DNA of 46,570 nt from assembly GCA_001275005.1 (NCBI GenBank), contig JWZX01003284.1, forward strand, positions 1 to 46,570. The letters are read 5' to 3'. How positions within the stretch are numbered: position 1 is the first letter of the stretch; the number at the start of each line of letters is the position of its first letter. The position numbers were made by a program, and so were the translations under genes. The stretch comes from Chrysochromulina tobinii (taxonomy: Eukaryota). The notes under the pieces were generated by a model that worked only from the letters and a program-made list of their open reading frames with translations, searched no databases and was not told the DNA's origin. Below, in pieces: positions 5,188-44,619 of the stretch.

Positions 5188-7021
5188 TGCACAAGCTCAG
5201 CGAGTCCACACCGCTCATCTCGAAAGGGCGGTACGCGTTTGAGCGACTCGGCATCGATTCGCGAGAGGTGTGGAGTATCATCATCATCGTGCTGCTTTTC
5301 ATCGGCAAGGGCGTCCAGCCGTTTGTCACGGACATCGTGCACGTGACGCAGGCGGCGCTGATCGAGGACAAGACGCTCGACATCACATTTACGGCGCTAG
5401 GCGGCCTCGTGGGCGTGCAGGACTTCACGTCCGGGGTCGCCAAGCTGAGCGTGCCCATCGTGCTGCGCAACTTCGGGCCGAGGATTGTGTATCTCACAGT
5501 GCTCTTCGTGGGCGCGTGCAATACGCTGGCGATCGCGAGCATCGAGGGCGACGTGAGTATCACCGTAATCTTCTCGGGCACTGTGCTGCAGTCGTTCGTG
5601 CACTCGTGGTTGTACCCGGCGACGACGATGACCATCTGCGGCTGGATGGATGGGTCAGTGCTGGGGCGCTCGATCGGTATCGTGGCTGTGGCGACCAAGA
5701 TCACGCCCATCTTCATGGCGCTCATCTACGGCCACCTTCTCGACGTGGGCACCTGGCGGACGTGCTACTACTTCGCCTCCATCCTCTTTGCGAGTATCTT
5801 CGTCGTCTTCTTCGTCTTCATGCGCTCGTCGGCAACCTCCGTCGGCTTCCGCATGCCCGCGCAGCCCACCTCGGGCAAGAAAGGCAACAAGAGGGGCGGC
5901 GAGGATGGGCCCGTGACGGCGCCGAATCGGCCGCCGCCCCTGGGCAATGAGCCGAGCAGCCTCCGGGCTCTATACATCATCAGTTGCATGCGGCGAACGT
6001 GGGCGCTCTTGCTGGGCTTCACCTGCCTCGTCCTTCTGAAGGGGAGCGCCAAGTTTGCGTCGCTGTACGCCAAGCAGAAGCTCGGAGTGACAGCGAGCCA
6101 GGGCACGACGCTCTTCACCACGTACGCTGTCGCAAGCGTCGTCTCGGGCCTGTGCGGCGGCTTCGTGTACGACGCTGTGCCCGAAGGCAAGGTAGGCATC
6201 GGGGTGTTGATGACCTCGCTCAACCTACTCAACCTATCCGGCTTCATCTACGCCCTGGTGCTTGAGCAGATGGACTTCGTGACGATGCCGCTGCTGCAGG
6301 TGTACATGTTCATCGTGGGATTCGCCTCGGTCCTGCCAGTGAGCTTGCCTTTCCAGATCTACGCGATGGGCATGGGCGGCGTCGAGCACTGCGGCATGAT
6401 CGTCGCGGCATTCGAGTGCTTCGCTCTCATTGTCGAGTCACTATTCGACGTGGTCATCGGCTGCTTGCTCGACCAAAAGAACTTTAGCGTGTGGCTCTCC
6501 CTCAACATCGTCTTTGCCACGCTCGGCACCGCCTTCATGGCCCTCTTCTACATTCTTGACTATCGGAAGTCGCCCAAGGCCAACGTGCTCACCTCCGTGC
6601 CCAGGTGAGTGCCACTGATTGCCTCTGATGGCCTCTGATGGCCTCTGATGGCCACTGATGGCCACTGATGGCCTCTGATGGCCACTGATGGCCTCTGATG
6701 TTCGCTGATGGCCTCTGAAGGCCTCTCGCAATCGCCACTGATGACCACTGATGACCATCGACCGCATGCTCGTTGCCTCCGACCAGCCTCAACTCGATCA
6801 CGCGCACCTACTCGAAGCTTCGCCTTTGGGCAGAAACGCTCACGCCCTCGTCCTCGTGCGCCTCTCTCGCCTCCATCGGCTTTGGGAACCCGTCGGAGCC
6901 TTCGTCACCATCCACGCGAGATGGCAGCACACGGCGCAGCCCGATTTCTCCGTCAGCGAGCTGCAAGGGCATGGTGCCAACATTGGCGCCCGGATCGCCC
7001 CCCAAAACTGCAGAGTCTTGA
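5188..7021 (+). CDS. Major facilitator superfamily transporter; exons ~5188-6604 and 6787-7021
   Basis: Two bundles of about 6 hydrophobic helices separated by a hydrophilic loop. MFS-like segments 'LRNFGPRIV' and 'GWMDGSVLGRSIG'. Intron 6605-6786 (GTGAGT...GACCAG) joins in frame to LNSITRTYSKLRLW. The start is uncertain because the ORF is open to 4947. Confidence 0.8.
6612..6757 (+). repeat. Intronic decamer array (CTGATGGCCT/CTGATGGCCA variants)
   Basis: Directly visible tandem repeats inside the MFS intron. Confidence 0.9.
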
Positions 7022-8074: not shown

Positions 8075-8358
8075 TGTGAATGGGGGCACCCCCCGCCGAG
8101 CGTCCGGCGCCCGCGCCCGGGCCGACTCCCCTGTGGGGAAAACGGGGAGGAGTGGTAAAGATCCGTTCATATGAATACACACAACACGTGAGCAGCACAG
8201 CCTTTCACAACACTCCAACACGTACAACGCAACGTTCCCAGGACAAAGAAACATCAACTGCACACGCATGGAAAGTCCTACCATAGTATGGAAAACAAAT
8301 TTCCAAAAACTTCTATGTTGCCTCTTGCGACCTGTGCGCCGACGCCCTCGAGTGAGGC

Positions 8359-11300
8359 ATGCCATACATTGACCTGCCCGGCAGTGCCATGAAGCGTGGC
8401 TTTAGATTGAGCCGCGCCGCAGCGAACCGGCCGTACCGCGAGTGGACGGACGAGGGGCCGCAGCAACCGTCCATGGACGCGGGCTACTCTCCGGTGGACG
8501 ACAAGCGTGCCAAGCGTGAGGCGGCAATCGTCGTGCAGCGGTGGTACCGCCGGCAGCTGCTCAAGTTCGCCACCTTCGGGCCGGTCATATTCACGCGGCG
8601 CGACGGCAAGCTCGCCGATTTTGGCTCGCTCTCGTTCCTCGGCGGCACGCGGATCGCCTACTACATTCGCATCTCGGACACTACGTCATCGGCTATGCTC
8701 TCGCACTTCTTGGAGAAGTATTGGCGGCTGCCGCGACCGGACGTGCTCATCTCGGTCACGGGCTCTGCCGCATCGCTCCAGCTGACCTCGCAGCTGCAGC
8801 GGGTCTTCGACCGCGGCCTCGCGTCGGCGGCCGCGATGACGAACGCGTGGATCTTCACCGGAGGCACGGACAGCGGCGTGATGAAGCTCGTAGGCGAGGC
8901 GATGCATAAGTACGGGCTGGTGGACGTGCCGGTCGTGGGCGTCGCGCCGTGGGGCGCGATTGCGGGGCGCAAGGAGCTGAGCGACAAGAAGGGTCAAACC
9001 ATCGAGGTGATGGCATGGCAATACGAGTGCGCCTCTGCGTGCGCCTCTGAGTGCGCCTCCGAGTGCGTCCAATTGCCTGCCTCATCAGGTGATGTACGGC
9101 AAGACCGGGATGGACACTGTCGGCCGCCTCAACCCCTACCACACGCATCAGATCCTCGTGGACGCGCCGGACGGCGGGAGCGAGGCCACCGCCTGGGGCT
9201 CGGAGATCGGGCTGAGATCGCGCCTCGAGCGCACGTACGCGATCACAGTGATAGATGGCCATTGATGACCTCTGATTGCCTCCCTCATCAGGCTCGGAGA
9301 TCGGGCTGAGATCGCGCCTCGAGCGCACGTACGCGGTCGCAGTGATAGATGGCCATTGATGACCTCTGATTGCCTCCCTCATCAGGTATGCGATCTCGAA
9401 GGGCGTGCCCGTAGTGCAGCTCGTCATCCAGGGCGGACTGGGCACGCTCGACACGTGCATCGCTTCCGCTGAGCTCGGATCGCCGTTACTCATCCTCGCC
9501 GACTCGGGCGGCGCGGCCACGGCCATCGCGCAGTTCTGCACGGGGGGAGAATCGGGGGGAGGTGTGTGAGTGCATGCGGAGTGCCTCGCGGACTACATCT
9601 CTGAGTGCATTCTGATGGCATCTCTGAGTGCATGCTGAGTGCCTCGCGGACTGCATCTCTGAGTGCATGCTGATGGCATCTCTGAGTGCATGCTGATTAC
9701 ATCCCTCATCGCGGATTGCATCTCTGAGTGCATTCTGATGGCTGATGGCGCATCCGCTCTGAGTGCATGCTGATTACATATCTGAGTGCATGCTGATTGC
9801 ATCTCTGAGTGCATGCTGATAGTGCATCCGCTCTGGCGGTGGGGGATTCTGATTGCCACGGATTGCCACGGATTGCCACGGATTGCAGCACGCTCTGACG
9901 GGTTGGGGATTCACGTGGAATCCTCGACGCGCTCGAGAGTGCCGTGTGATTGCATCTGTGAGTGCCGTGTGATTGCATCTTTGATTGCATGCTGACTGCC
10001 TCTGTGAGTGCATGCTGCTGAGTGCAGGAGGGGACATCGACGCGGTTGAGAGCGCCGACTTCATCGCGCAGGAGCCCAAGCTGCGCCAGCTCAAGTCGCT
10101 CAACGACGAGCGCGGGGGCACGTTGCTCAGCTTCTTCAAGCTGCAGGATGAGGACTCTCAGCAGAACATGTCGAGCGCCATCTTGGGCGCGCTCTTCCGG
10201 AACCTGATGTTCCACCAGCCGGGCCAGGCGGTGGGCAGCTCCATCACGCCGGCCATGCAGCGCCTGGCCAAGCGCCGTTCTGAAGTGTACGACGGCGCGG
10301 CGGTGGTGAAGGCGGCGACAGATGAGATCTTCAAGCGTTACCTCGATCAGATGCAGGTGTGTGATTGCCCTCGATTGGTTGCTGTGATGGCCTCACTCAT
10401 CACAGAGGCACGGGATTCCCGCTGATGGCCTCACTCATACAGAGGCACGCGGGATTGCCGCTGATGGCCTCACTCATCACAGAGGCACGCGGGACTGCCG
10501 CTGATGGCAACGATGTGCGACTGATCGGCATGATGTACGGCCATGGGCATGTACATACGATTATACATACGATTATACATACGACTGATCGGCATGATGG
10601 CTTCCCTCGGCAGCGCGCGCTGCTGCTCACTGTCAAGTGGAATCAGCCAAGCTTCGCGAGGCGCATTCTCGTCGACCTGCCACCCTCGCACGATCACACG
10701 CGCCCGATGCGTAAGATGCTTCAGCATGCGATAGGACAGCGCCGGCTGGAGATCGTGCGCCTGCTGCTCGAGCGCCCAGGTGCGATCTCCCTTGATGACC
10801 ACTGATTGCATGCCAATGGCACCCGATCGTGCGCCTGCTGCTGCTCGGACGTTCAGGCACCGCAATCTCGTCTGTCAGCCTGTGCCAGCTGTACTTGCTT
10901 GAGGACCCGTACAATTACTTACGCCGAGATCTCGCGCTCCAGGCGAGATTACAGCGAGCTCTGAGCGAGATCGCGCGAGATGGGAACACACAGGCCCAAT
11001 GGGGTTCCGCCTACCTTCTCTTCCGCAACACGGTTGGACCCACGCTTCGAGCGGTCACGCCGCTGCTCGGCGGCATCATCGAGAATCAGCGTCTTTGCAC
11101 GCACGCCGATGTCTTCTTCTGGTGAGTGCCCTCTGATGGCGCCTCTAATGGCCTGTGATGGCCTGTGATGATGGCCTCTGATTGCATTTCTGGTGAGTGC
11201 CCTCTGATGGCGCCTCTGACGGCGCCTTTGATGGCCTCTGATGATGGCCTCTGATTGCATCTGATGGCCTCCCTCATCAGGTGCGTCTTCATGGGCGACG

Positions 11301-14300
11301 TGCGCCTCGCGCGCGAGCTCTGGGCCTACGTGGAGCATCCCCTGCACTGCGCACTGATCGCAAGCCACGTGCTCAACGTGATCGCGTCGCGCGCGTCGGC
11401 TGCCAAGATTGAGGCGCGCGCGGCGGCGGCCGAGATAGAAGCTTGGGCGATGGGCGTGATGGACGAAATCCAGGAGCAGGAGGTCGGCCACTGGCTGCTC
11501 TCGCAGCACGTGCCTGCGTGGGGGCTCGGCTCGATCGTCGATCTCGCCCTCCAGGTGCGATCTCCCTTGATGAGCACTGATTGCATGCTGAGTGCACTCC
11601 CTCGGTTCGATCGTCGATCTCGCACCCTCCGATGGAGCTCGTGAGGAGATCGTCGATCTCGCACCCTCCGATGGAGCTCGTGAGGAGATCGTCGATCTCG
11701 CACCCTCCGATGGAGTTCGTGAGCTTCCTCGGATGGCCTGATGGCCTCGGATTGCCTATGATGGCCTCTGATTGCCTCTGATTGCCTCTGATTGCCACTC
11801 ATGAGCTCTTCGATCTCGATCTCGCCCCCCAGATGGAGCTCAAGACCTTCCTCGCGCATCGTCACTGCCAGTCGCTGATGGATCTACGATGGCGCGGCGG
11901 CTTCCCGGTGCTTACCTCTAGGCCTCTGATGGCCTCTGATGGCCTCTGATAGCCTCTGATGGCCTCTGATGGCCTCTGATGGCCTCTGATGGCCTCTGAT
12001 GGCCTCTGATGGCCTCTGATGGCCTCTGATGGCCTCTGATGGCCTCTGATGCGCGGCGGCTTCCGTGCCTTCAGGGCTCCGGCTGCATCGTGCCTGCGTC
12101 CCACTCGATGCCCCTCATTTCTGCGTGGATGCTCTTCCCCTTGTTGAACCCGTACTTGCGGCGCGACGCTGAGGGCAAGTCCGGCGAACGCTCATCCAAT
12201 GCCCCAACCCATTCCCCCGGGGGATCTTCGACTTTTGGCAACGATGGGTACGATGAGGATGATGACTTCTGATGACCTGTGATGACTTCTGATGACCTCT
12301 GATGACCTCTGATGACCTCTGATGGCCTCCCTCATCAGGTACGATGAGGATGATGGGCAAGTCAGCCCGATTGGGGAGGATCCCGAGCTCTTGCTCGGGG
12401 CGCTCGCGGAGGCGCTCAACCTCAAGGAGTACGTCTGATGGCTTCTGATGAGCTTTGATTCCCTCTGAGTGCCTCTCATCGCCTCTGATGGCCTCTGATG
12501 GCCTCCAGTGGCCTCCAATGGCCTCTGAGTGCCTCTGATGGCCTCTGAGTGCCCTGAGTGCCTCTGATGGCGCCCCTGTCTCAGGTTCGAGAAGAAGAAG
12601 GCACGGGCCGCTCTCGATGTCGAGGCGGAGAAGAAGCGCCTTGAGGTGGAGAAGGAGAGTGCTCTGCAGAAGGCGCTGGCGGAGGCTGCGCGTGCAAAGG
12701 CAAAGGAGGAGTGGGCGGCGCAGCGTGCTGCTCAAGAGGCACGCTCGGGCGCGGGCGTGGTGGACCCACGTCACCAGAGGTCACCTGATCAGAGGTCACC
12801 TGAGGATCTCCGCGATCTCCCTCCGAAGAAGGCATTCAAGAGCGTCGCGGTCAACGTGATGGAGATGGATGACAAGCGCGGGGTGGGTGTAGATGGATCA
12901 CCAACTAAGCGGCTCGCGGTCACGCTCCGCGCCCTCTCCCTTCGTCGGGAAGGCTCGCAGTCCGCTCTGCTCGGGCGCTCATTCAAGCACCAGCAGACCT
13001 TCTCGCACTCGGTCAAAAGTCTCGTCAACCGCGGGTTTCGTGACGCACCGGAGGTGGCCAAGAGACCCAAGAGTGTGAATGTGAATGGCTTCTACTCAGT
13101 GCTCTTGATTGCGTCCCTCATCAGGTGGCCAAGAGACCCAAGAGTGGTTTCTACTCAGTGCCCCTGGTCAAGTACTGCATGCGCGCCGTGTCGCACGTGC
13201 TCTTCTTGTGCCTCTATTTCGAGGTCTGCACCCATCTGCTCACCTCGCTGATGACCTCTGATGACATCGGATTGCTTCTGATGACCTCTTGATTTCCTAC
13301 CTCATCAGGTCCTCACCCATCTGCTCACGGTGGATCAGCTCTGGGCCATGTCACCGAGGCTGCCGCCGCTCACGTGGGCCGAGCTGATGCTGATCGTCTG
13401 GTCCCTTACACTGGGGTACGAGCATCGGCAGCGCGACTACCTGATGAAAACGTACGGGCTGATTGCGGACTCATGGCTCAAGTCACTTGTGAACACGGCG
13501 CACATGGTGATGAATGCCGCCATCGGGCTGCGCCTCGTCACGCGGATCCCGGGCTTCGAGTTCGCCTCGGCGTATACGGCCTATCAGACGCTAGTCTCGT
13601 TCGACGCCGTCCTCATGTGTTGCGAGACGTTCACTTTCATGTGGACTTCACACAATTTCGGCATCCTGGCGATCACGCTCGTGCAGATGATGATCGACCT
13701 CTCGCTATTCCTCGTCTTCTTCTCGGTCATTATCGTCGGCTTCTGCTTCGCGCTCGTCGGCCTCTCAGAGACGGTGATTGCAGCTGATTGCGTCTGAGTG
13801 GCCCTTTGATTGCGTCTGCTTCGCACTCGTGGCCTCTCAGAGACGGTGATTGCAGATGATTGCGTCTGAATGGCCCTTTGAGTGCGCCTGATGGCCTCCC
13901 TCATCAGGCTGGAGAACACGATCTACTCTCCGCAGCCACTTTCGAAGACATCAAATCCGCGGGCCACACCCTCTCCGGCGCCGCCGTCGCCGCCGCATCC
14001 GTCGCTTCGGATTCTATTCGGGCCGGCATCACGTCGGCGTCGGCGTCGGGTGGTCGACGCCTATCAGTCGACGCGACGGACTCTGTGGACCGGCGTCTGC
14101 TGTCGGCCATCGACATGCTCGGCGGCGGTGGTGGTGGCGGCGGAGGCGTGCAGACCGAGCCCCTGGCGCTCTATTGGCAACCTTTCTGGTACATGTACGC
14201 CGAGTTTGACATCGATGTGCTTCGTCAAGTGCCCTTCGCTCTCCCGCTAATGTGGGTGTACGTGCTGCTCGCCAACGTTGTGCTCGTCAACATGCTGATC

Positions 14301-15262
14301 GCGATGTTTGCGGACACGTACACGCGCATCAAGCGGAACGCGGAGGTCGAGTATCAGTATCAGCACTACCTTCACATCTTCGAGTACCAGCACGTCGTGC
14401 ACCATCTGCCGCCGCCCTTCAATGCTCCCATGCTGCTCTGGGATGCCTGCCGCGCATGCTTCCGCTCGACCGAGGCCCTGGAGCGGCTCGTCCGAATGGA
14501 CTTTGGCGCCTTTCCAGAGCGTGAGTACCTGGAGCTGTATGGGGCGGCGCCGCTGCTTCATGGGGCAGGTTCCTCGGGCAGCTCCACTCTGAGCCGCAAG
14601 TGCGTGCTTGGCTCTTGCTCTGATGCGCTCTGATGCGCTCTGATGCGCTCTGATGGGCTCTGATGGGCTCTTATGGGCTCTGATGGGCTCTGATTGGTTG
14701 AGAGCCTGTGCGCGCCACTGATGACCTGCGATGACCTCTGATGACCTCCGATGCCCTGTGATGGCCCACTGATGCCCGCTGATGACCTCTGATTGCCTCC
14801 CTCCTCAGGTATGTTCAGCGATTCCTCAAGGCTCGCGCGGAGGTGACGAACCACTGATGACCTCTGATTGCCTCCCTCAGGTATGTTCAGCGATTCCTCA
14901 AGGCTCGCGCGGAGGTGACGAACCAGACGTCGCAGGCGGCGCTCGTGCGCCGTATTGAGCAGATGGTCGACGATCTTGAGGAGAGCCTGCAGCACGAGTT
15001 CGAGCACATCAGCAACAGCCTCGTGGCGCAGCGCGACGAGACGAACCGCAAGTTTAAGTACATTGTGGCCGCCGTCGACCGCGCGGCACGCGGCGAGGTC
15101 GCCAAGTCGAGCCAGGTGGGCGTGCAGGCGATGAAGGAGGCAGTCCGCGCCCCCACCACCTCGCCGCCTGCGACGTTGCGCACGGCACCGCAGGGCGGCG
15201 GCGGCGGTGGCGGCGGGCCCGGCGGTGCGGCCCAGCCCAAGAGGATACAAAGGCAGGTTTAG
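8359..15262 (+). CDS. TRPM-like cation channel with N-terminal SLOG/MHR region; 15 exons (introns 9007-9088, 9235-9385, 9562-10027, 10357-10613, 10780-10856, 11122-11280, 11555-11832, 11908-12074, 12248-12338, 12429-12584, 13054-13124, 13224-13308, 13774-13907, 14600-14880)
   Basis: The spliced frame is continuous. It shows TRPM hallmarks LISVTGSA, AWIFTGGTDSGVMKLVGEA, VGVAPWG, LNPYHTHQILVD, GSEIGLRSRLE, VPVVQLVIQGG, ILADSGGAA, LLLTVKWNQ, KTFLAHRHCQSLMDLRWRG and FYSVPLVKY. S6 reads ANVVLVNMLIAMFADTY, followed by LPPPFN and a C-terminal coiled coil. All introns are GT-AG with consistent phases. Confidence 0.85.
9197..9384 (+). repeat. 94-bp tandem duplication spanning an exon end and a whole intron unit
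   Basis: ggctcggagatcggg...ctccctcatca at 9197-9290 and 9291-9384, nearly identical. Confidence 0.9.
9566..10025 (+). repeat. Intronic degenerate array of CTGAGTGCAT/CTGATTGCAT units plus (GATTGCCACG)n
   Basis: Visible repeats filling TRPM intron 3. Confidence 0.85.
11609..11723 (+). repeat. Three 39-bp intronic repeats resembling the spliced exon7-exon8 junction
   Basis: Unit gatcgtcgatctcgcaccctccgatggagctcgtgagga at 11609, 11648 and 11687, compared with the spliced junction gatcgtcgatctcgccctccag|atggagctc. Confidence 0.9.
11921..12050 (+). repeat. (GGCCTCTGAT)x13 intronic array
   Basis: Near-perfect decamer tandem repeat with one variant unit. Confidence 0.95.
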
Positions 15263-20751: not shown

Positions 20752-21795
20752 ATGGAGTCTCGGGACGCTCTCGGCAATCGCTTGAAGCGCGACCCCTTTA
20801 CGGGCATCATGTGGGCCCCGGGCATGCCATCATCGGGGCTCGCGTATGCACATGAGGCGAGGCTGTGGAGAAAGGAACGTGAAAGGGCTATGGCATTCGC
20901 CAGCGAGTTGGCGGCTGCAAGGAAGCAACGTGAAAGAGCAGCAGCGAAGCCCGTCTTCGACATCGATGCGCCGTTTGGCATGAACACCGATCCTCGCACG
21001 GGGCAATTCGTTCATCCAGAGCATCGTCGGCCGGGGCCTAAAAGCATAAACTACTTCCAATATCATTTGAGCCAACCACGCAGCGCTGAGGAACGCAGCC
21101 GGCTCTTTCGCATGCGTGGCAGTAACAATTGGTATGGGGTCGTGCGCCCAGTCGTGCCTCGGAGCTGTAGCGGCAGCATGCTCGGGTACGTGCCTTCCGC
21201 AGACCAGAACCTCCACCGCGGCTTCCACTCCGGGCGCACCGCTGGGCGAGCGTTTGATGACGACACTGGAGGCCACGTGCGTTCGTACGAGGAGCCGCCG
21301 CCGCGCCAGGGGCGCGACACCGGATTGCGGGAGCGCGAGCTGCGCCGCGCTGCATCGGTGCCGACGTATGTGCCGCCGCCGGCCACGGCATGGGGGTCGG
21401 CAGAGGCGTGTCCGGCGACGCCACGGGGCCCGATCATGTCGATCGACAGGACTGGAATGGTGTATCCAGTCTACACTGGCAGGAAAGAAGAGTTGGCGCA
21501 GAAGGTCGGCAGTGCTCACTGGTCGACGGTGGCTAGTCCAGCTACGCCACGAGCATCAACAGTGTCTCGCCCAGCCACGCCACGGGGTTCGACGATGGCT
21601 AGCCCAGCCACGCCACGGGGTTCGACGATGGCTAGCCCAGCCACGCCACGGGGTTCGACGATGGCTAGCCCAGCCACGCCACGGGGTTCGACGATGGCTA
21701 GCCCAGCCACGCCACGGGGTTCGACGGTGGGGTGGGCACCGCCCCCGCCCAGGCTGCCGCCGCCCCCGCAAACATGCGAAACATATTTCGTGTGA
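20752..21795 (+). CDS. Hypothetical protein with C-terminal 11-aa (MASPATPRGST) repeats
   Basis: Long ORF with an ATG at 20752 after an AT-richer spacer, containing in-frame 33-bp repeats. No known domain recognised. Confidence 0.6.
   Translation: MESRDALGNRLKRDPFTGIMWAPGMPSSGLAYAHEARLWRKERERAMAFASELAAARKQRERAAAKPVFDIDAPFGMNTDPRTGQFVHPEHRRPGPKSINYFQYHLSQPRSAEERSRLFRMRGSNNWYGVVRPVVPRSCSGSMLGYVPSADQNLHRGFHSGRTAGRAFDDDTGGHVRSYEEPPPRQGRDTGLRERELRRAASVPTYVPPPATAWGSAEACPATPRGPIMSIDRTGMVYPVYTGRKEELAQKVGSAHWSTVASPATPRASTVSRPATPRGSTMASPATPRGSTMASPATPRGSTMASPATPRGSTMASPATPRGSTVGWAPPPPRLPPPPQTCETYFV
21523..21730 (+). repeat. Coding 33-bp tandem repeat, about 6 copies
   Basis: Unit gctagcccagccacgccacggggttcgacgatg; the first copies are degenerate. 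Confidence 0.9.
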
Positions 21796-24153: not shown

Positions 24154-27093
24154 TCAAAAGAGGACAAAGACGTCGAGCCCGGGACGGGGCCGACTCGCCT
24201 CGAGCTCGCAGACGGTGAGCGTTAAGGGCGGCGCAACGATGAGCGCGCCGAGCATCACGCTCTGGCAGACCCATGGCAGGTTGTCGTGCGAGGGCGATCC
24301 CGGCCATGGAAGTGCCGCCCACGCTCGCGAGTCACCGGTCGCGCGCGAGAGGAGAGGGCTGGCGCTGAGGAGCGCGAGGACGGCGGCGCCCAACCCGACG
24401 GCGATGGCGAGATGCAGCCGTTGGGCCAGCCTCGCCACCTCACCCGCGGCCACTTGCTCTCTCCGAGGAGCAAGACAAGAGAGACTCACCAGGTGGACAA
24501 GGGCAGCGGCCGCCCAGGCCGCACGCGCGACATCGAAGACGAGGTCCGACAGCGCCTCAGGCACCATGAGCACCACCCCGAAGAGTACCCAGAAGAGGCG
24601 CAGCGACGGCCAGGCGACGCGCAGCGCGAAACGGCTCGTTGGGCCAGTCGCCGTGGTGAGGCTGGGCGGGAGAGGGCTCCTGTGGGAGTCTTCAGCCGGG
24701 TGAGAGCGTGCGCTCAGCAGCAGCCAGCTTGGGCACAGGGCGCCGTGTACGAGCGCAGCGCTCAGCACGGCGGTCAGCGGTGCGGTGGAGACGGCGTTGA
24801 GCACGGACAATTCGTAACTGACCACTCGACCCATTTCGTGCTCCGGCGGCCAGGGCGCAATCTCCAATGACGCAAGCCACGGCAGCACGCTGAGCAGTGC
24901 GAGCGGCATCGCCTGCAGCCACGCGTCCTCGCGCAGATGCTGCAGAGCGACCTCCATGCTCGAGCCTCGCGCCGATCTGGCGCGGCCGTTACTCCACACG
25001 GCGCTCGACACGGCGCTCGATCCTCGGGCAACAACGTGAGGCGAAATGGGCGGCCGGCATGGGGCGGCCGGGTTGGCGGCGAGCACGGCGACGGCGGCGA
25101 CGGCGACCGTCTGCAGGCTGGCGTAGGCGGCGCTCGTGGCCTGTACCATGCCAAGCACGTGGAGTACCAGATGAAGGACGAGCCCAGCTGTGGACAATGT
25201 GAGCACGCACCACGCGAGCAGCAAGGCCCATCCGTGGGTGGCCGCTGACTGTGTACACCACGTGAGCAGCGCGGCCCACAGTGTGGACACACCAGACCAC
25301 GCCAGCGGCGACGTCCATGGGGTAGGGAAGTGTGCATGTGAATGGGAGTGTGAGAGCGAGACCGACTTGAGGCCGCCGACTGGAGGCAGCCGCCGCCCAA
25401 GACAACGCGTCGCCACGGCAAAAAAGGCGAGCGAGGCGCCCACGTCGACGGCGGGCGCCATCAAGTGCCATCCCTCCGTGGCCCATGCGTAGGAAGAGCT
25501 AATCAGCCAGAGCCAGAGCAGCGCGCAAGTCCCGTGCACCCACCGGAGCTCAAGCGCCGTGTTGAGCTCGAGTGGCCCGCTGGAGCTCCCGAGTGCTGTG
25601 AATGCTGCCCTCGTGTGAATGCTGGAGCTCCCGAGTGCTGTGAATGCTGCCCTCGTGTGAATGCTGGAGCTCCCGAGTGCGTGGGCATCGCCGCTGTCCG
25701 AGTCACCCTCGTCTACGAAACGGCTCGAGATGCCTTTGTGACTGCTGCTGCTGCTGCTGCTGCTGCCGGCGCCGAGGTGGCTGTCGGCGCCGTGGCCGGG
25801 GCCTCCGCCGCCCCTGCTGGCACCGCTGCCGGCCGTGCCGCTGCCCTTGCTGACGCTGTTCCCGCCCGCCTCATCGTTGCCGGCGCTCGCTAACATGAAG
25901 AGGATCGCGGGGCAAAGGCAGAGGCAGAGTCCTCCCATCGCGTGGCCGTTGGAGGCATACGCGACGAGAATCTGCGCCGCGGCATGCTCCGGCGCGGCTG
26001 CGAACTCGCAAGCGAGGTCACGTCGCACGTCGGTGTCGACGGCCCACGCAGCGCCGAGTAACGGCAGCGAGGCCGCGTACAGGACGGGCAGAGCTGCGGC
26101 AAAGACGCGCGCGGCGGTACCATCGAGGAGCAGCGGCGCACTCACGGCAATCACGAGCGCGGCTGCAGAGCCCCTCAGTCTTAGCACCCCATCCAATGAA
26201 AAGTTCTCGATGCCGGCGCTGTGCGCGCTGCCGCACTCGGAGGCGATCGCGCCCACGAAGCCCACCGCTCCTGCGAGCGGGAGGTATGCCACCAAGCGCG
26301 GCACGTATCGCAACACGAGCGGGGCGTTGGTCACCGCCGCCTCTGCGGTCGCCGTGGCCGCCGTCGGGCACGTGGCAGTGGTCGACGAGCAGCAGCACAT
26401 CGCCGCCGCCTCACCCAAGCGTTTGCAGCGCGGCCAGACCTCTTGGTACCATGCCTGCATCCCTGCCTCCACGAGCTTCGAGCGGGGTCTCGGCAGCGGT
26501 GGTGGCGCGGCGACGTAGACGGCGGAGGCGACCGTTGAGGCGACAGGTCGCGAGGAAGCGACGCCCTTCACGGCTCCGATGCGCACGCGCGGAGGCGGCG
26601 CGGGAAATGAGATGGGGGGCGGGGCGGCTGGCGACGGAGTCGCGGGTGTCGGAGCGGGCGCCTGGTTAGCTGGCTCTGGTGGCTCAATGGGAGCCTGAGT
26701 GCGTGTACTTGCACGTACCGCGGCCCTCGCCACTCGCGCCTCGGCGTCCGCATGCACCTCGTCCGCAATCGCCTGTGTTGGGGTCGCTTCCTTGGGCTCA
26801 AGGGAGGCTGATGATCTCGAATCGGAGCGCTTCAAGAAGTCATCGGCCTCCCTGAGCCACAGAGGCGTCTGTGCTGTCGTCTCCTCTGTGACGGATCTGG
26901 GCTGTGGCTTAGCAGAGTCCACTTGGGCATTTCCCGATGCCTCTGCCAACCCAGGCGGCATCCCTGGCGGAAAGGGCGTGGACGCTCGCATTGGAGACGC
27001 AGGCGGGCTGTGGTGGCCCTGGTTGGTCGGTTGCATTGTCTTTCGACAAAAGGCGCTCCAGACAGGTGTGAAATTATAGCAGGCCTTTTGCAT
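24154..27093 (-). CDS. Hypothetical multi-pass membrane protein with Pro/Ala-rich N-terminus
   Basis: Uninterrupted ORF of about 1000 aa with many hydrophobic helices in the C-terminal two thirds. Start uncertain (ORF open to 27204). Confidence 0.6.
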   Translation of the reverse strand: MQKACYNFTPVWSAFCRKTMQPTNQGHHSPPASPMRASTPFPPGMPPGLAEASGNAQVDSAKPQPRSVTEETTAQTPLWLREADDFLKRSDSRSSASLEPKEATPTQAIADEVHADAEARVARAAVRASTRTQAPIEPPEPANQAPAPTPATPSPAAPPPISFPAPPPRVRIGAVKGVASSRPVASTVASAVYVAAPPPLPRPRSKLVEAGMQAWYQEVWPRCKRLGEAAAMCCCSSTTATCPTAATATAEAAVTNAPLVLRYVPRLVAYLPLAGAVGFVGAIASECGSAHSAGIENFSLDGVLRLRGSAAALVIAVSAPLLLDGTAARVFAAALPVLYAASLPLLGAAWAVDTDVRRDLACEFAAAPEHAAAQILVAYASNGHAMGGLCLCLCPAILFMLASAGNDEAGGNSVSKGSGTAGSGASRGGGGPGHGADSHLGAGSSSSSSSSHKGISSRFVDEGDSDSGDAHALGSSSIHTRAAFTALGSSSIHTRAAFTALGSSSGPLELNTALELRWVHGTCALLWLWLISSSYAWATEGWHLMAPAVDVGASLAFFAVATRCLGRRLPPVGGLKSVSLSHSHSHAHFPTPWTSPLAWSGVSTLWAALLTWCTQSAATHGWALLLAWCVLTLSTAGLVLHLVLHVLGMVQATSAAYASLQTVAVAAVAVLAANPAAPCRPPISPHVVARGSSAVSSAVWSNGRARSARGSSMEVALQHLREDAWLQAMPLALLSVLPWLASLEIAPWPPEHEMGRVVSYELSVLNAVSTAPLTAVLSAALVHGALCPSWLLLSARSHPAEDSHRSPLPPSLTTATGPTSRFALRVAWPSLRLFWVLFGVVLMVPEALSDLVFDVARAAWAAAALVHLVSLSCLAPRREQVAAGEVARLAQRLHLAIAVGLGAAVLALLSASPLLSRATGDSRAWAALPWPGSPSHDNLPWVCQSVMLGALIVAPPLTLTVCELEASRPRPGLDVFVLF

Positions 27094-43200: not shown

Positions 43201-44619
43201 ATGCCGAAAGGAAATCCGAAGAAGCCGCCCGGCTCCAAAAAATCTGCTCTCCCACCCAAGCTGCTGTCGAGCTGGGGCTTCGTCATCTTCGGCGCGTGCG
43301 GTGTGGCGCTCGCAATTGTCATGCCGCACCTCCTCAAGTACCTATTCCCGCACCCAGAACCGAAGCCACGCGTGGACAACGGCGCTACCCAGCAGCAGCA
43401 GCAGCAGAGCTCGCCAAAGGCCGTCTGCGCAGAGGACGGCCCGCCGGAGCATGAGATGTGCCTCGCCTGGCACAAGGCCGGATACTGCCGCGCACAGCGC
43501 CGCGGCGTCAGCTTTCCATCAGCTCAGCAGGTGCAGGAGCAGTGCGCTCGCACCTGCGGGCTCTGCCCTAACACTAAAGGGCGCAATCCACCCAAGCCGC
43601 GTGAGGATCGTTGCTCGCGCGACAACACCACGGCGGCCGTGCCCGAGGGCGAGCTCAACCGGCTCTTCGAGCGCATCAAAGCGGAGTACCCGGAGTACGA
43701 GCCGACGTTTCTCTCGACGTCGCCGTATGTGTTGCACCTGAAGAACTTCATCAGCGCGGAGGAGGCGGCCGCGTTCCAGAGCACGTGCAAGGAGTCCTTC
43801 GAGCGCTCGCTCGCGGGCGACCAGCTCAACCCGGTGCGCACCTCGTTCCAGTGTTGGTGCAACTTCGGAGACTGCTTCGCGAACCCTCTGGTGCACCGCG
43901 TGACACGTCGGATCAACAACCTGACGAACACGCCGTACGACAACGGCGAGGACCTTCAGGTCGTGCGGTACGAGCCGGGCCAATTCTACCGCGTCCACCA
44001 CGACCAGAACACGGCCGTGTGGGCACCCCAGGGTCCTCGTGTCCTCACCTTCTTCATGTACCTCAACGACGTCCCCTCGGGCGGCGAGACCGCGTTTCCA
44101 CAGATACCCTCGCCGTCGGGCAAGGGCCACCTTATCGTCCAGCCGCGGCTCGGCCATGCCATCCTGTGGCCTTCGGTCTTCGACGAGCGGCCCATGGAGG
44201 CTGATGAGCGCACCAATCACGAGGCGATGCCGGTGCACGAGGGCGTCAAATTTGGCGCCAATATGTGGATCCACCAGGTGCGTGCGACTGATTGCGACTG
44301 ATTGCGACTGATTGCCACGGATTGCCACGGATTGCCACTGATGGCCACTGATGGCCACTGATTGCCACTGATGACCTCCCGATATGTGGATCCACATCAG
44401 TTCTCATTCAAGACGCCGTCGGAGCGAGGGTGCGAACTCACGTATGTCAACACGGTCGGCCGCCAGCCGCAGACGCGCGAGCATGAGGCGCTCGTCGCTG
44501 GGCGAGTTCCCACGTATGAGGAGACGGTGCGAGCCGCGAGCCAGAGCAAGAGCCTCGACCCGGACACGCTCGCCCGCCTCGATGCCAAATTCAAACGAGG
44601 AGGTCGCGACCAGGTGTGA
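43201..44619 (+). CDS. Prolyl 4-hydroxylase (2OG-Fe(II) oxygenase) with N-terminal TM anchor and ShKT-like domain; exons 43201-44277 and 44401-44619
   Basis: TM segment WGFVIFGACGVALAIVM, ShKT-like CLAWHKAGYC...QCARTCGLC, LQVVRYEPGQFYRVHHD, TFFMYLNDVPSGGETAFP and HEAMPVHEGVKFGANMWIH. Intron at 44278-44400. Confidence 0.9.

What the first reader, a model, noticed from the sequence alone, without database searches (positions are those of the whole stretch)
11555..11832. Intron containing three tandem copies of its own spliced exon-exon junction
Seen: the predicted mRNA junction is TCGATCGTCGATCTCGCCCTCCAG|ATGGAGCTC. The intron holds three 39-nt units GATCGTCGATCTCGCACCCTCCGATGGAGCTCGTGAGGA. Each fuses the upstream exon end to the downstream exon start, but with the AG destroyed. 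The functional acceptor (TCGATCTCGATCTCGCCCCCCAG) is a fourth, degenerate copy. Inference: this is either a fossil of the pre-intron allele amplified in tandem or templated copying from spliced RNA/cDNA during repair. Loss of AG in the internal copies suggests selection against cryptic acceptors.
Basis: partly seen in the sequence, partly recalled or inferred. Interest (0 to 1): 0.85.

Follow-up and report, generated by a model that had tools for sequence, protein, structure and literature searches.

The report
Intron keeps copies of its insertion site
A real, RNA-confirmed intron in an algal ion-channel gene carries a tandem array of 39-base units that look like its own spliced junction, most likely because two short mobile intron elements landed one after the other and each duplicated a long piece of the gene; it is a clear footprint of how introns are likely made and enlarged in this alga.

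Summary
The intron is 11555-11832, GT..AG. RNA contigs of three studies and a spliced metagenome contig show the predicted joint. Three 39-nt units lie at 11609-11725. With 8 nt upstream they match the spliced junction from -30 to +9, 38 of 41 columns. None of 4000 shuffles reached this score.

It is most likely a DNA-level footprint and not an RNA-templated copy.
- The intron starts with a 46-nt element whose first 19 nt are identical to the start of intron 10780-10856. That intron also ends in a copy of its own upstream exon end, which supplies the acceptor.
- So a copy of the exon-1 end once sat directly against exon 2. That was the old acceptor.
- A second array-bearing element (11719-11805) then inserted 9 nt further on, with a duplication of about 40 nt. 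This buried the old acceptor.
- The buried piece then expanded as a minisatellite: 3 copies here, 5 and 7 in related contigs.

Ten of 14 introns in this gene hold copies of their own flanks. The scan had already noted a repeat-flanked intron family in this genome, on another piece of it (e1-2577349). I rate this a new variant of introner-like intron gain, of moderate interest.

The parts
11525..11554 (+). A0: last 30 nt of exon 1, the duplicated target; ends in the CAG before the donor
   Evidence: Junction positions -30..-1 in the alignment. The exon end is confirmed by the RNA joints and by L005.
11555..11600 (+). Element (a): 46-nt repeat-family sequence that supplies the GT donor
   Evidence: The first 19 nt are identical to 10780-10798. 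There are only 2 matches in the window at up to 3 mismatches, 0 expected. The alignment with intron 10780-10856 extends over about 44 nt. Summed DNA contig depth is about 9-13 times the flanks in X1 (rough).
11601..11631 (+). A1: intron-internal copy of the exon-1 end, read as the old polypyrimidine tract and acceptor with its AG lost
   Evidence: alignment. Positions 11601-11623 are identical to the exon end of L003 and L004, which carry T where the window has C at 11530.
11632..11640 (+). B1: copy of the first 9 nt of exon 2 (former exon start)
   Evidence: junction +1..+9, 9 of 9 identical.
11609..11725 (+). Minisatellite of three 39-nt units. Each unit holds 23 nt of A, 9 nt of B and the first 7 nt (GTGAG..) of element (c).
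   Evidence: Copy number is 3 (window), 5 (L004), 7 (L002), and at least 3 and at least 2 in the truncated L003 and L001. Depth over the units is only about twice the flanking exon in X1, X5 and X6, so the unit is local and not dispersed.
11719..11805 (+). Element (c): array-bearing element with a GTGAG start, 10-nt CTGATKGCCT-type repeats and an end in CATGAG
   Evidence: The start matches the start motif of intron 11122 with 2 mismatches. Array length differs in L004.
11806..11832 (+). A4: degenerate copy of the exon-1 end that carries the acceptor CAG now in use
   Evidence: Family D4. The acceptor is confirmed by the RNA joints and L005.
11833..11907 (+). Exon 2 of this pair (75 nt). Its first 9 nt are the original of B.
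   Evidence: Exon pieces of L005; one open reading frame across the model.
10780..10856 (+). Sister intron I5: element (a) (45 nt) followed by a 32-nt copy of its own exon end (10751-10779) that supplies the acceptor
   Evidence: 18 of 18 identical at 10825-10842. The splice sites are predicted from ORF continuity only.

Best explanation
The 39-nt units are a local, copy-number-variable minisatellite, likely grown from the intron's buried former acceptor region, which two successive insertions of short intron-making repeat elements, each duplicating 30-40 nt of target, would have left inside the intron.

Step 1 (inferred, supported by a sister intron): element (a), 46 nt and starting with GT, entered the coding sequence and duplicated about 30 nt of target. 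The upstream copy (A0) stayed as the end of exon 1. The downstream copy (A1), ending in CAG, became the acceptor, directly abutting exon 2 (B). A1 plus B is therefore the intact pre-insertion sequence, which is why it looks like the spliced junction.

Step 2 (inferred): a second element (c), with a GTGAG start, a 10-nt array and an AG end, entered 9 nt into exon 2 and duplicated about 40 nt (A1 plus B). This regenerated an acceptor and exon start downstream (A4|B4). Splicing from the old donor to the A4 acceptor restores the original mRNA. That joint is shown by RNA. The buried acceptor lost its AG.

Step 3 (the array and the differing copy numbers are seen in the assemblies): a 39-nt piece spanning A1, B1 and the first 7 nt of (c) expanded in tandem and varies between strains.

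The order of steps 1 and 2 cannot be settled. No function of the array is implied.
For: - The splice joint is shown in RNA contigs of 3 of the 4 runs laid and in the spliced contig L005.
- The internal copy matches junction -30..+9 (38 of 41 columns), and 0 of 4000 shuffles reach its score.
- The start of element (a) is 19 of 19 identical to the start of intron 10780-10856. That intron consists of the element plus a copy of its own exon end ending in CAG.
- The same layout, with an exon-end copy at the 3' end of the intron, is seen in two other genes of the window, near 44278-44402 and near 6605.
- The start of element (c) matches the start motif of intron 11122 with 2 mismatches. The pattern has 7 hits in the window against 0.59 expected.
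- Intron 14600-14880 holds a 45 of 45 copy of its exon-2 start behind an intact older acceptor, which is an analogous second hit.
- 10 of 14 introns of the gene score higher against their own junction flanks than any of the 182 non-cognate pairs.
- Copy number is 3, 5 and 7 in three contigs. The window and L002 differ at only 6 other sites in about 8 kb.
- Depth over the unit is only about 2 times the flanks, so it is not a dispersed repeat.
- A 403-nt contig of X7 joins 12246 to 12338. It lacks intron 12248-12338 but keeps parts of both neighbouring introns, which suggests these introns are recent insertions.
Against: - No strain with an intermediate state (element (a) only, or (c) only) was found among the 5 loci and the displayed contigs. 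Steps 1 and 2 therefore rest on analogy.
- The duplications are 14-45 nt long and variable. Published introners have 2-9 bp target-site duplications (passages of PMC9860276 and of bioRxiv 10.1101/2020.10.14.339549). A transposase-type mechanism is therefore not established.
- Element (a) has only 2 copies in the window. Its genome-wide copy number is inferred only from rough contig depth.
- The splice sites of introns I1-I5, including the sister intron, are predicted from ORF continuity and are not shown by RNA.
- Copy numbers come from short-read assemblies, which can collapse tandem arrays.
- X7 is labelled 'DNA?'. If it were RNA, the intron-less contig could be a partly spliced transcript.
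Confidence: 0.7

Rival explanations
1. Pure segmental tandem duplication (Rogers-type intron gain). An exon segment spanning the present junction was duplicated several times, and the intron simply runs between equivalent points of the first and last copy. The repeat arrays colonised it later.
For: The intron does run between equivalent positions of the first (A0) and last (A4|B4) copies, so splicing restores the sequence exactly. Tandem duplications of 39-94 nt that straddle splice sites are common in this gene: 9197-9386, 11117-11260, 13742-13890 and 14779-14925. A segmental duplication has been shown to make a functional intron (PMC3265369; search listing and start of abstract only).
Against: The joint has no AG|GT: exon 2 starts with AT. 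The donor lies in a 46-nt sequence that is not a copy of exon 2 and recurs, 19 of 19 identical, at the start of another intron.
Confidence: 0.15
2. The units were copied from spliced mRNA or cDNA into the intron during break repair.
For: The unit joins the exon-1 end to the exon-2 start as the mRNA does.
Against: The similarity ends at -30 and +9, exactly at the borders of elements (a) and (c). The same exon-end copy behind element (a) exists in intron 10780-10856 without any exon-2 part. The junction-like copy in intron 9235-9385 lies inside a 94-nt DNA tandem duplication that includes intron sequence. The unit carries the first 7 nt of element (c), which is intronic.
Confidence: 0.03
3. The array is a selected splicing-control element, for example a set of decoy donors (GTGAG in each unit) or protein-binding sites that tunes splicing of this intron.
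For: Each unit holds a donor-like GTGAG and a pyrimidine-rich stretch. All five contigs keep the array.
Against: Copy number varies from 3 to 7 between near-identical sequences, as expected of a neutral minisatellite. The displayed RNA joints show only the 11554|11833 joint for this donor, although 81 further joints were not shown. No conservation beyond close strains could be tested.
Confidence: 0.05

Closest known systems
[quoted passage not shown]
   Same: A short repeated element is coextensive with the intron. The element supplies the donor, and the acceptor comes from the duplicated target (introns 10780-10856 and 11555-11832). Other introns of the gene show the mirror form, as in Symbiodinium and Polarella elements (bioRxiv 10.1101/2020.10.14.339549, passages): the duplicated target supplies GT and the element supplies the AG.
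   Different: The duplicated target here is 14-45 nt and variable. The published range is 2-9 bp, and 4 bp for the Chrysochromulina example. The elements carry 10-nt arrays of variable length. No transposase or inverted terminal repeat was identified. Here two elements are nested, so a pseudo-junction is trapped inside the intron.
Human F7 intron 7 37-bp VNTR whose first unit spans the exon 7 boundary (PMC1557585; listing and start of abstract only)
   Same: An intronic minisatellite of about 37-39 nt whose units contain a copy of exon-boundary sequence with splice-site-like motifs. Copy number varies.
   Different: In F7 the array starts at the donor boundary and repeats the donor. Here the array is internal and repeats a dead acceptor fused to a former exon start.
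Intron creation by segmental or tandem genomic duplication (PMC3265369, PMC4974935; listings and start of abstracts only)
   Same: Intron sequence derives partly from duplicated exon, and splicing between equivalent points restores the mRNA.
   Different: There is no AGGT in the duplicated segment. The donor is supplied by a repeat-family element and not by the duplicated exon.

Membership tests
Introner-like element (transposon-derived intron family) | The same sequence family occurs in introns of unrelated positions or genes | tested here: met
   Element (a) starts two introns with 19 of 19 identical bases, 0 matches expected by chance. The 3' motif CYTCATCAG ends 8 intron or intron-internal copies in this gene. 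Array introns occur in other genes of the window. Summed contig depth over the canonical motif is thousands of times the exon depth (rough, not a copy number).
Introner-like element (transposon-derived intron family) | The element is spliced out precisely and supplies at least one splice site | tested here: met
   RNA joints are seen for 7 introns of the gene. L005 lacks introns I7-I13. The donor of 11555-11832 lies in element (a).
Introner-like element (transposon-derived intron family) | Target-site duplication of a fixed, short length (2-9 bp in published families) | tested here: not met
   Direct repeats of the flank are present, but they are 14-45 nt long and variable. Examples: 17-18 nt at 12248, 22 nt plus a further 15 nt at 13054, about 30 nt at 10780 and 11555, and 45 nt at 14809.
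Introner-like element (transposon-derived intron family) | Presence/absence polymorphism or lineage-specific gain | tested here: inconclusive
   One 403-nt contig of X7 lacks intron 12248-12338 but keeps parts of both neighbouring introns. The run's kind is only guessed as DNA. No empty site was seen for 11555-11832 itself.
Intron gain by tandem segmental duplication (Rogers model) | The duplicated exon segment contains AGGT, so that donor and acceptor are copies of one site | tested here: not met
   Exon 2 starts with AT, and the donor GT belongs to element (a).
Minisatellite / VNTR | Head-to-tail units of 10-100 nt whose copy number varies between individuals | tested here: met
   39-nt units with 98% matches; 3, 5 and 7 copies in the window, L004 and L002. 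Caveat: short-read assemblies can collapse arrays.
cDNA / retro-copy derived insertion | The copy follows the mRNA beyond the immediate flank and lacks intron-derived sequence | tested here: not met
   The copy covers only -30..+9 and is bounded by intron elements. The unit includes 7 nt of element (c).

The most novel reading that the evidence does not exclude
Introns in this alga are created and then enlarged by an insertion process that copies 15-50 nt of the target, far more than any described introner. Every such intron therefore stores an intact copy of its own pre-insertion site, and nested hits trap pseudo-junctions and dead splice sites inside introns. The variable duplication length, the constant element end and the variable array length would point to a mechanism unlike the known cut-and-paste introners, such as target-primed or polymerase-templated break repair.
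Probability: 0.4. Interest if true: 0.7.

Novelty: new variant of a known kind. Interest (0 to 1): 0.5.

Why it matters
How new spliceosomal introns arise is a long-standing question. Recent work attributes bursts of gain to introners with short target duplications.

This locus gives a readable, RNA-verified record of two successive insertion events and a later repeat expansion within one intron. It shows that 10 of 14 introns in one gene still carry copies of their own flanking exon sequence.

If the long, variable duplications prove general, they give a simple genome-wide signature for dating and counting intron gains in haptophytes. They would also point to an insertion mechanism not yet described for introners. 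In addition, the case shows how a 'spliced-junction copy' inside an intron can arise with no RNA intermediate.

Tried and rejected
- **Own genome:** the search was not possible because no genome is held.
- **Related loci:** the metagenome scan gave 5 loci, all the same species or close strains. None lacked the intron at DNA level. L005 lacks it but also lacks introns I7-I13, so it is read as a transcript contig and not as an intron-less allele.
- **DNA contigs:** contigs of four runs break inside the repeats. No contig in the displayed rows bridges the whole intron or shows an empty site for it. Many rows were not shown.
- **Extent of the copy:** I considered that the internal copy extends 22 nt into exon 2 (79% match of 11703-11731 to 11826-11854). 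I rejected this as the main reading. In L004 those bases read as the ordinary start of an array element, and the window's version matches the start motif of intron 11122 with 2 mismatches.
- **Intron start as a copy of exon 2:** I considered that the start of the intron is a degenerate copy of the exon-2 start. I rejected this because the same 19 nt start another intron.
- **Literature:** searches for 10-nt arrays or long duplications in haptophyte introns found nothing on point. Supplements of the introner papers were not opened and may list such families.
- **Organism:** the Atlas search gave only weak hints, with Haptophyta among the nearest clusters. 'Haptophyte' rests on the earlier scan note.

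Full report
**Setting.** The window is GC-rich eukaryotic DNA, and no whole genome is held for it. Positions about 8356-15262 (+) encode a TRPM-like cation channel. The N-terminal exon matches Pfam LSDAT_euk at E = 6e-32, and later exons match the TRPM2-like and Ion_trans families weakly. A model with 14 GT..AG introns gives one open frame of 1483 codons with a single terminal stop. Seven of these introns are seen as joints in RNA contigs. A spliced metagenome contig, L005, lacks introns I7-I13. Introns I1-I5 rest on ORF continuity alone. My only check was a weak Atlas hint.

**The observation.** The intron is 11555-11832. A fourth run showed no such joint. L005 reads across the same joint. 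Tandem Repeats Finder and the repeat finder give three 39-nt units at 11609-11725. The first unit plus the 8 nt before it aligns to the spliced junction from -30 to +9, with 38 of 41 columns identical and score 59. None of 2000 shuffled junctions and none of 2000 shuffled introns reach that score. Among 628 tiles of the spliced CDS, only those over this joint score high. The last 27 nt of the intron are a further degenerate copy of the exon-1 end.

**Anatomy.** The intron has five parts:
- element (a), 11555-11600;
- A1 (11601-11631), a copy of the last 30 nt of exon 1 with the final AG lost, followed by B1 (11632-11640), a copy of the first 9 nt of exon 2;
- the 39-nt array, which repeats most of A1, all of B1 and a GTGAG-type start;
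- element (c), 11719-11805, with a GTGAG start, 10-nt repeats and an end in AG;
- A4, 11806-11832, which carries the acceptor now in use.

**Element (a) is a repeat family with a long flank copy.** Its first 19 nt recur exactly once more in the window, at the start of intron 10780-10856. No match is expected by chance. The similarity runs over about 44 nt. That sister intron consists of the element followed by a copy of its own upstream exon end, 18 of 18 identical at 10825-10842 and then degenerate, ending in the CAG that serves as acceptor. The pair A0|(a)|A1 in the intron under study has the same layout. The same layout also appears in introns of two other genes of the window. In L003 and L004 the exon end carries T where the window has C (11530). 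This makes the exon end identical to A1 over 23 nt and fits A1 being a copy of the exon.

**Why the unit looks like a junction.** If element (a) entered the coding sequence and duplicated about 30 nt, the downstream copy lies directly against the original next bases. A1 plus B is then simply the uninterrupted pre-insertion sequence. No RNA is needed.

**The second event.** Element (c) begins with a sequence 2 mismatches from the start motif of intron 11122. It is flanked on the left by A1-B1 and on the right by A4-B4, a direct repeat of about 40 nt. Intron 14600-14880 offers a clean analogue. There a 45 of 45 copy of the exon-2 start sits behind an intact older acceptor and in front of a 27-nt element that ends in the working acceptor. 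After such a hit, splicing from the old donor to the new acceptor restores the mRNA, and RNA shows exactly this joint. The old acceptor's AG is missing in every unit of all five contigs. It is therefore one old event, compatible with selection but not proof of it. The units still contain other AG dinucleotides. The reverse order, (c) first and then (a), is also possible. It would need an intermediate with a small in-frame insertion.

**The array is a minisatellite.** L002 differs from the window at only six other sites over about 8 kb but has seven units. One of those six differences is an extra 10-nt unit in the next intron. L004 is a somewhat more diverged strain and has five units. L003 and L004 also lack the 73-nt duplication in intron 11122-11280. 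Depth over the units is only about twice that of the neighbouring exon in X1, X5 and X6, so the unit is not dispersed. Short-read assemblies can collapse arrays, so exact copy numbers need long reads.

**Generality within the gene.** I scored each spliced junction (30+30 nt) against each intron. Ten of 14 cognate pairs beat the best of all 182 non-cognate pairs (25). Their scores were 70, 62, 59, 50, 44, 36, 34, 30, 29 and 27. The four that did not were I1, I4, I6 and I10. There are two mirror forms:
- Introns that begin with a copy of the downstream exon start, which supplies GT, and end in the canonical CYTCATCAG motif. Examples are 12248 (17-18 nt), 13054 (22 nt plus a further 15 nt) and 13224.
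- Introns that start with an element and end in a copy of the upstream exon end (10780, 11555, 11908).

Intron 9235-9385 holds an even better junction-like copy, -38..+10 with 46 of 48 identical. It was made by a 94-nt tandem duplication of the exon end plus a whole 57-nt intron. The studied intron is thus one of at least two such cases in this gene.

**Evidence of recent gain.** A 403-nt contig of run X7 joins 12246 to 12338. It lacks intron 12248-12338 while retaining parts of both neighbouring introns. This looks like an empty-site allele. The caveat is that the run's kind is only guessed as DNA.

**Comparison with what is known.** Published introners carry one splice site and take the other from a 2-9 bp target duplication. 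A Chrysochromulina example carries the donor and co-opts the acceptor with a 4-bp duplication (PMC9860276, passages). Dinoflagellate elements show 3-8 nt duplications and the mirror form (bioRxiv 10.1101/2020.10.14.339549, passages). The logic here is the same, but the duplications are 14-45 nt and variable, and the fixed-short-TSD criterion is not met. The mechanism (transposase, target-primed reverse transcription or templated break repair) is open.

The Rogers-type duplication model (PMC3265369, abstract start only) fails for this intron. There is no AGGT at the joint, and the donor belongs to a repeat family. An intronic VNTR repeating a splice-site region is known from human F7 (PMC1557585, abstract start only). 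My searches found no description of these haptophyte arrays or of long duplications. Supplements were not read.

**Verdict.** The 'fossil of the pre-intron sequence, amplified' reading is essentially right once rephrased as a buried acceptor region. The RNA-templated reading is not supported. I rate it a new variant of introner-like intron gain with a neat nested footprint, at moderate interest (0.5).

Noticed in passing
window 12248-12338: A 403-nt contig of run X7 joins 12246 directly to 12338. It still contains parts of the introns on both sides, so it looks like an allele without this 91-nt intron, whose ends share an 18-nt direct repeat. The run's kind is only guessed as DNA.
   Followed up: partly
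window 14600-14880: This intron contains an intact older acceptor followed at once by GT (AG|GT at 14808/14809) and an exact 45-nt copy of the exon-2 start. This amounts to two abutting introns with a zero-length exon, that is, a potential recursive splice site.
   Followed up: partly
window 9197-9386: A 94-nt tandem duplication holds 37 nt of exon end plus a whole 57-nt intron. The predicted 151-nt intron therefore contains a 46 of 48 copy of its own spliced junction. Its splice sites are not confirmed by RNA.
   Followed up: partly
window 11117-11260: A 73-nt tandem duplication that includes the donor site and 5 nt of exon is present in the window, L001 and L002 but absent in L003 and L004.
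   Followed up: yes
window 44278-44402 and about 6605-6786: Array-bearing introns in two other genes also end in a copy of their upstream exon end. At 44278 the copy is 14 nt exact, followed by CAG.
   Followed up: partly
window 12241-12374: Summed DNA contig depth over the canonical array and end motif is thousands of times that of the neighbouring exons in all four runs laid. This suggests a very large genome-wide family. The figure is not a copy number.
   Followed up: no
window 21523-21730 and 25579-25680: Further long-period tandem repeats lie outside the channel gene (33 nt x 6.3 and 42 nt x 2.4). Their context was not examined.
   Followed up: no
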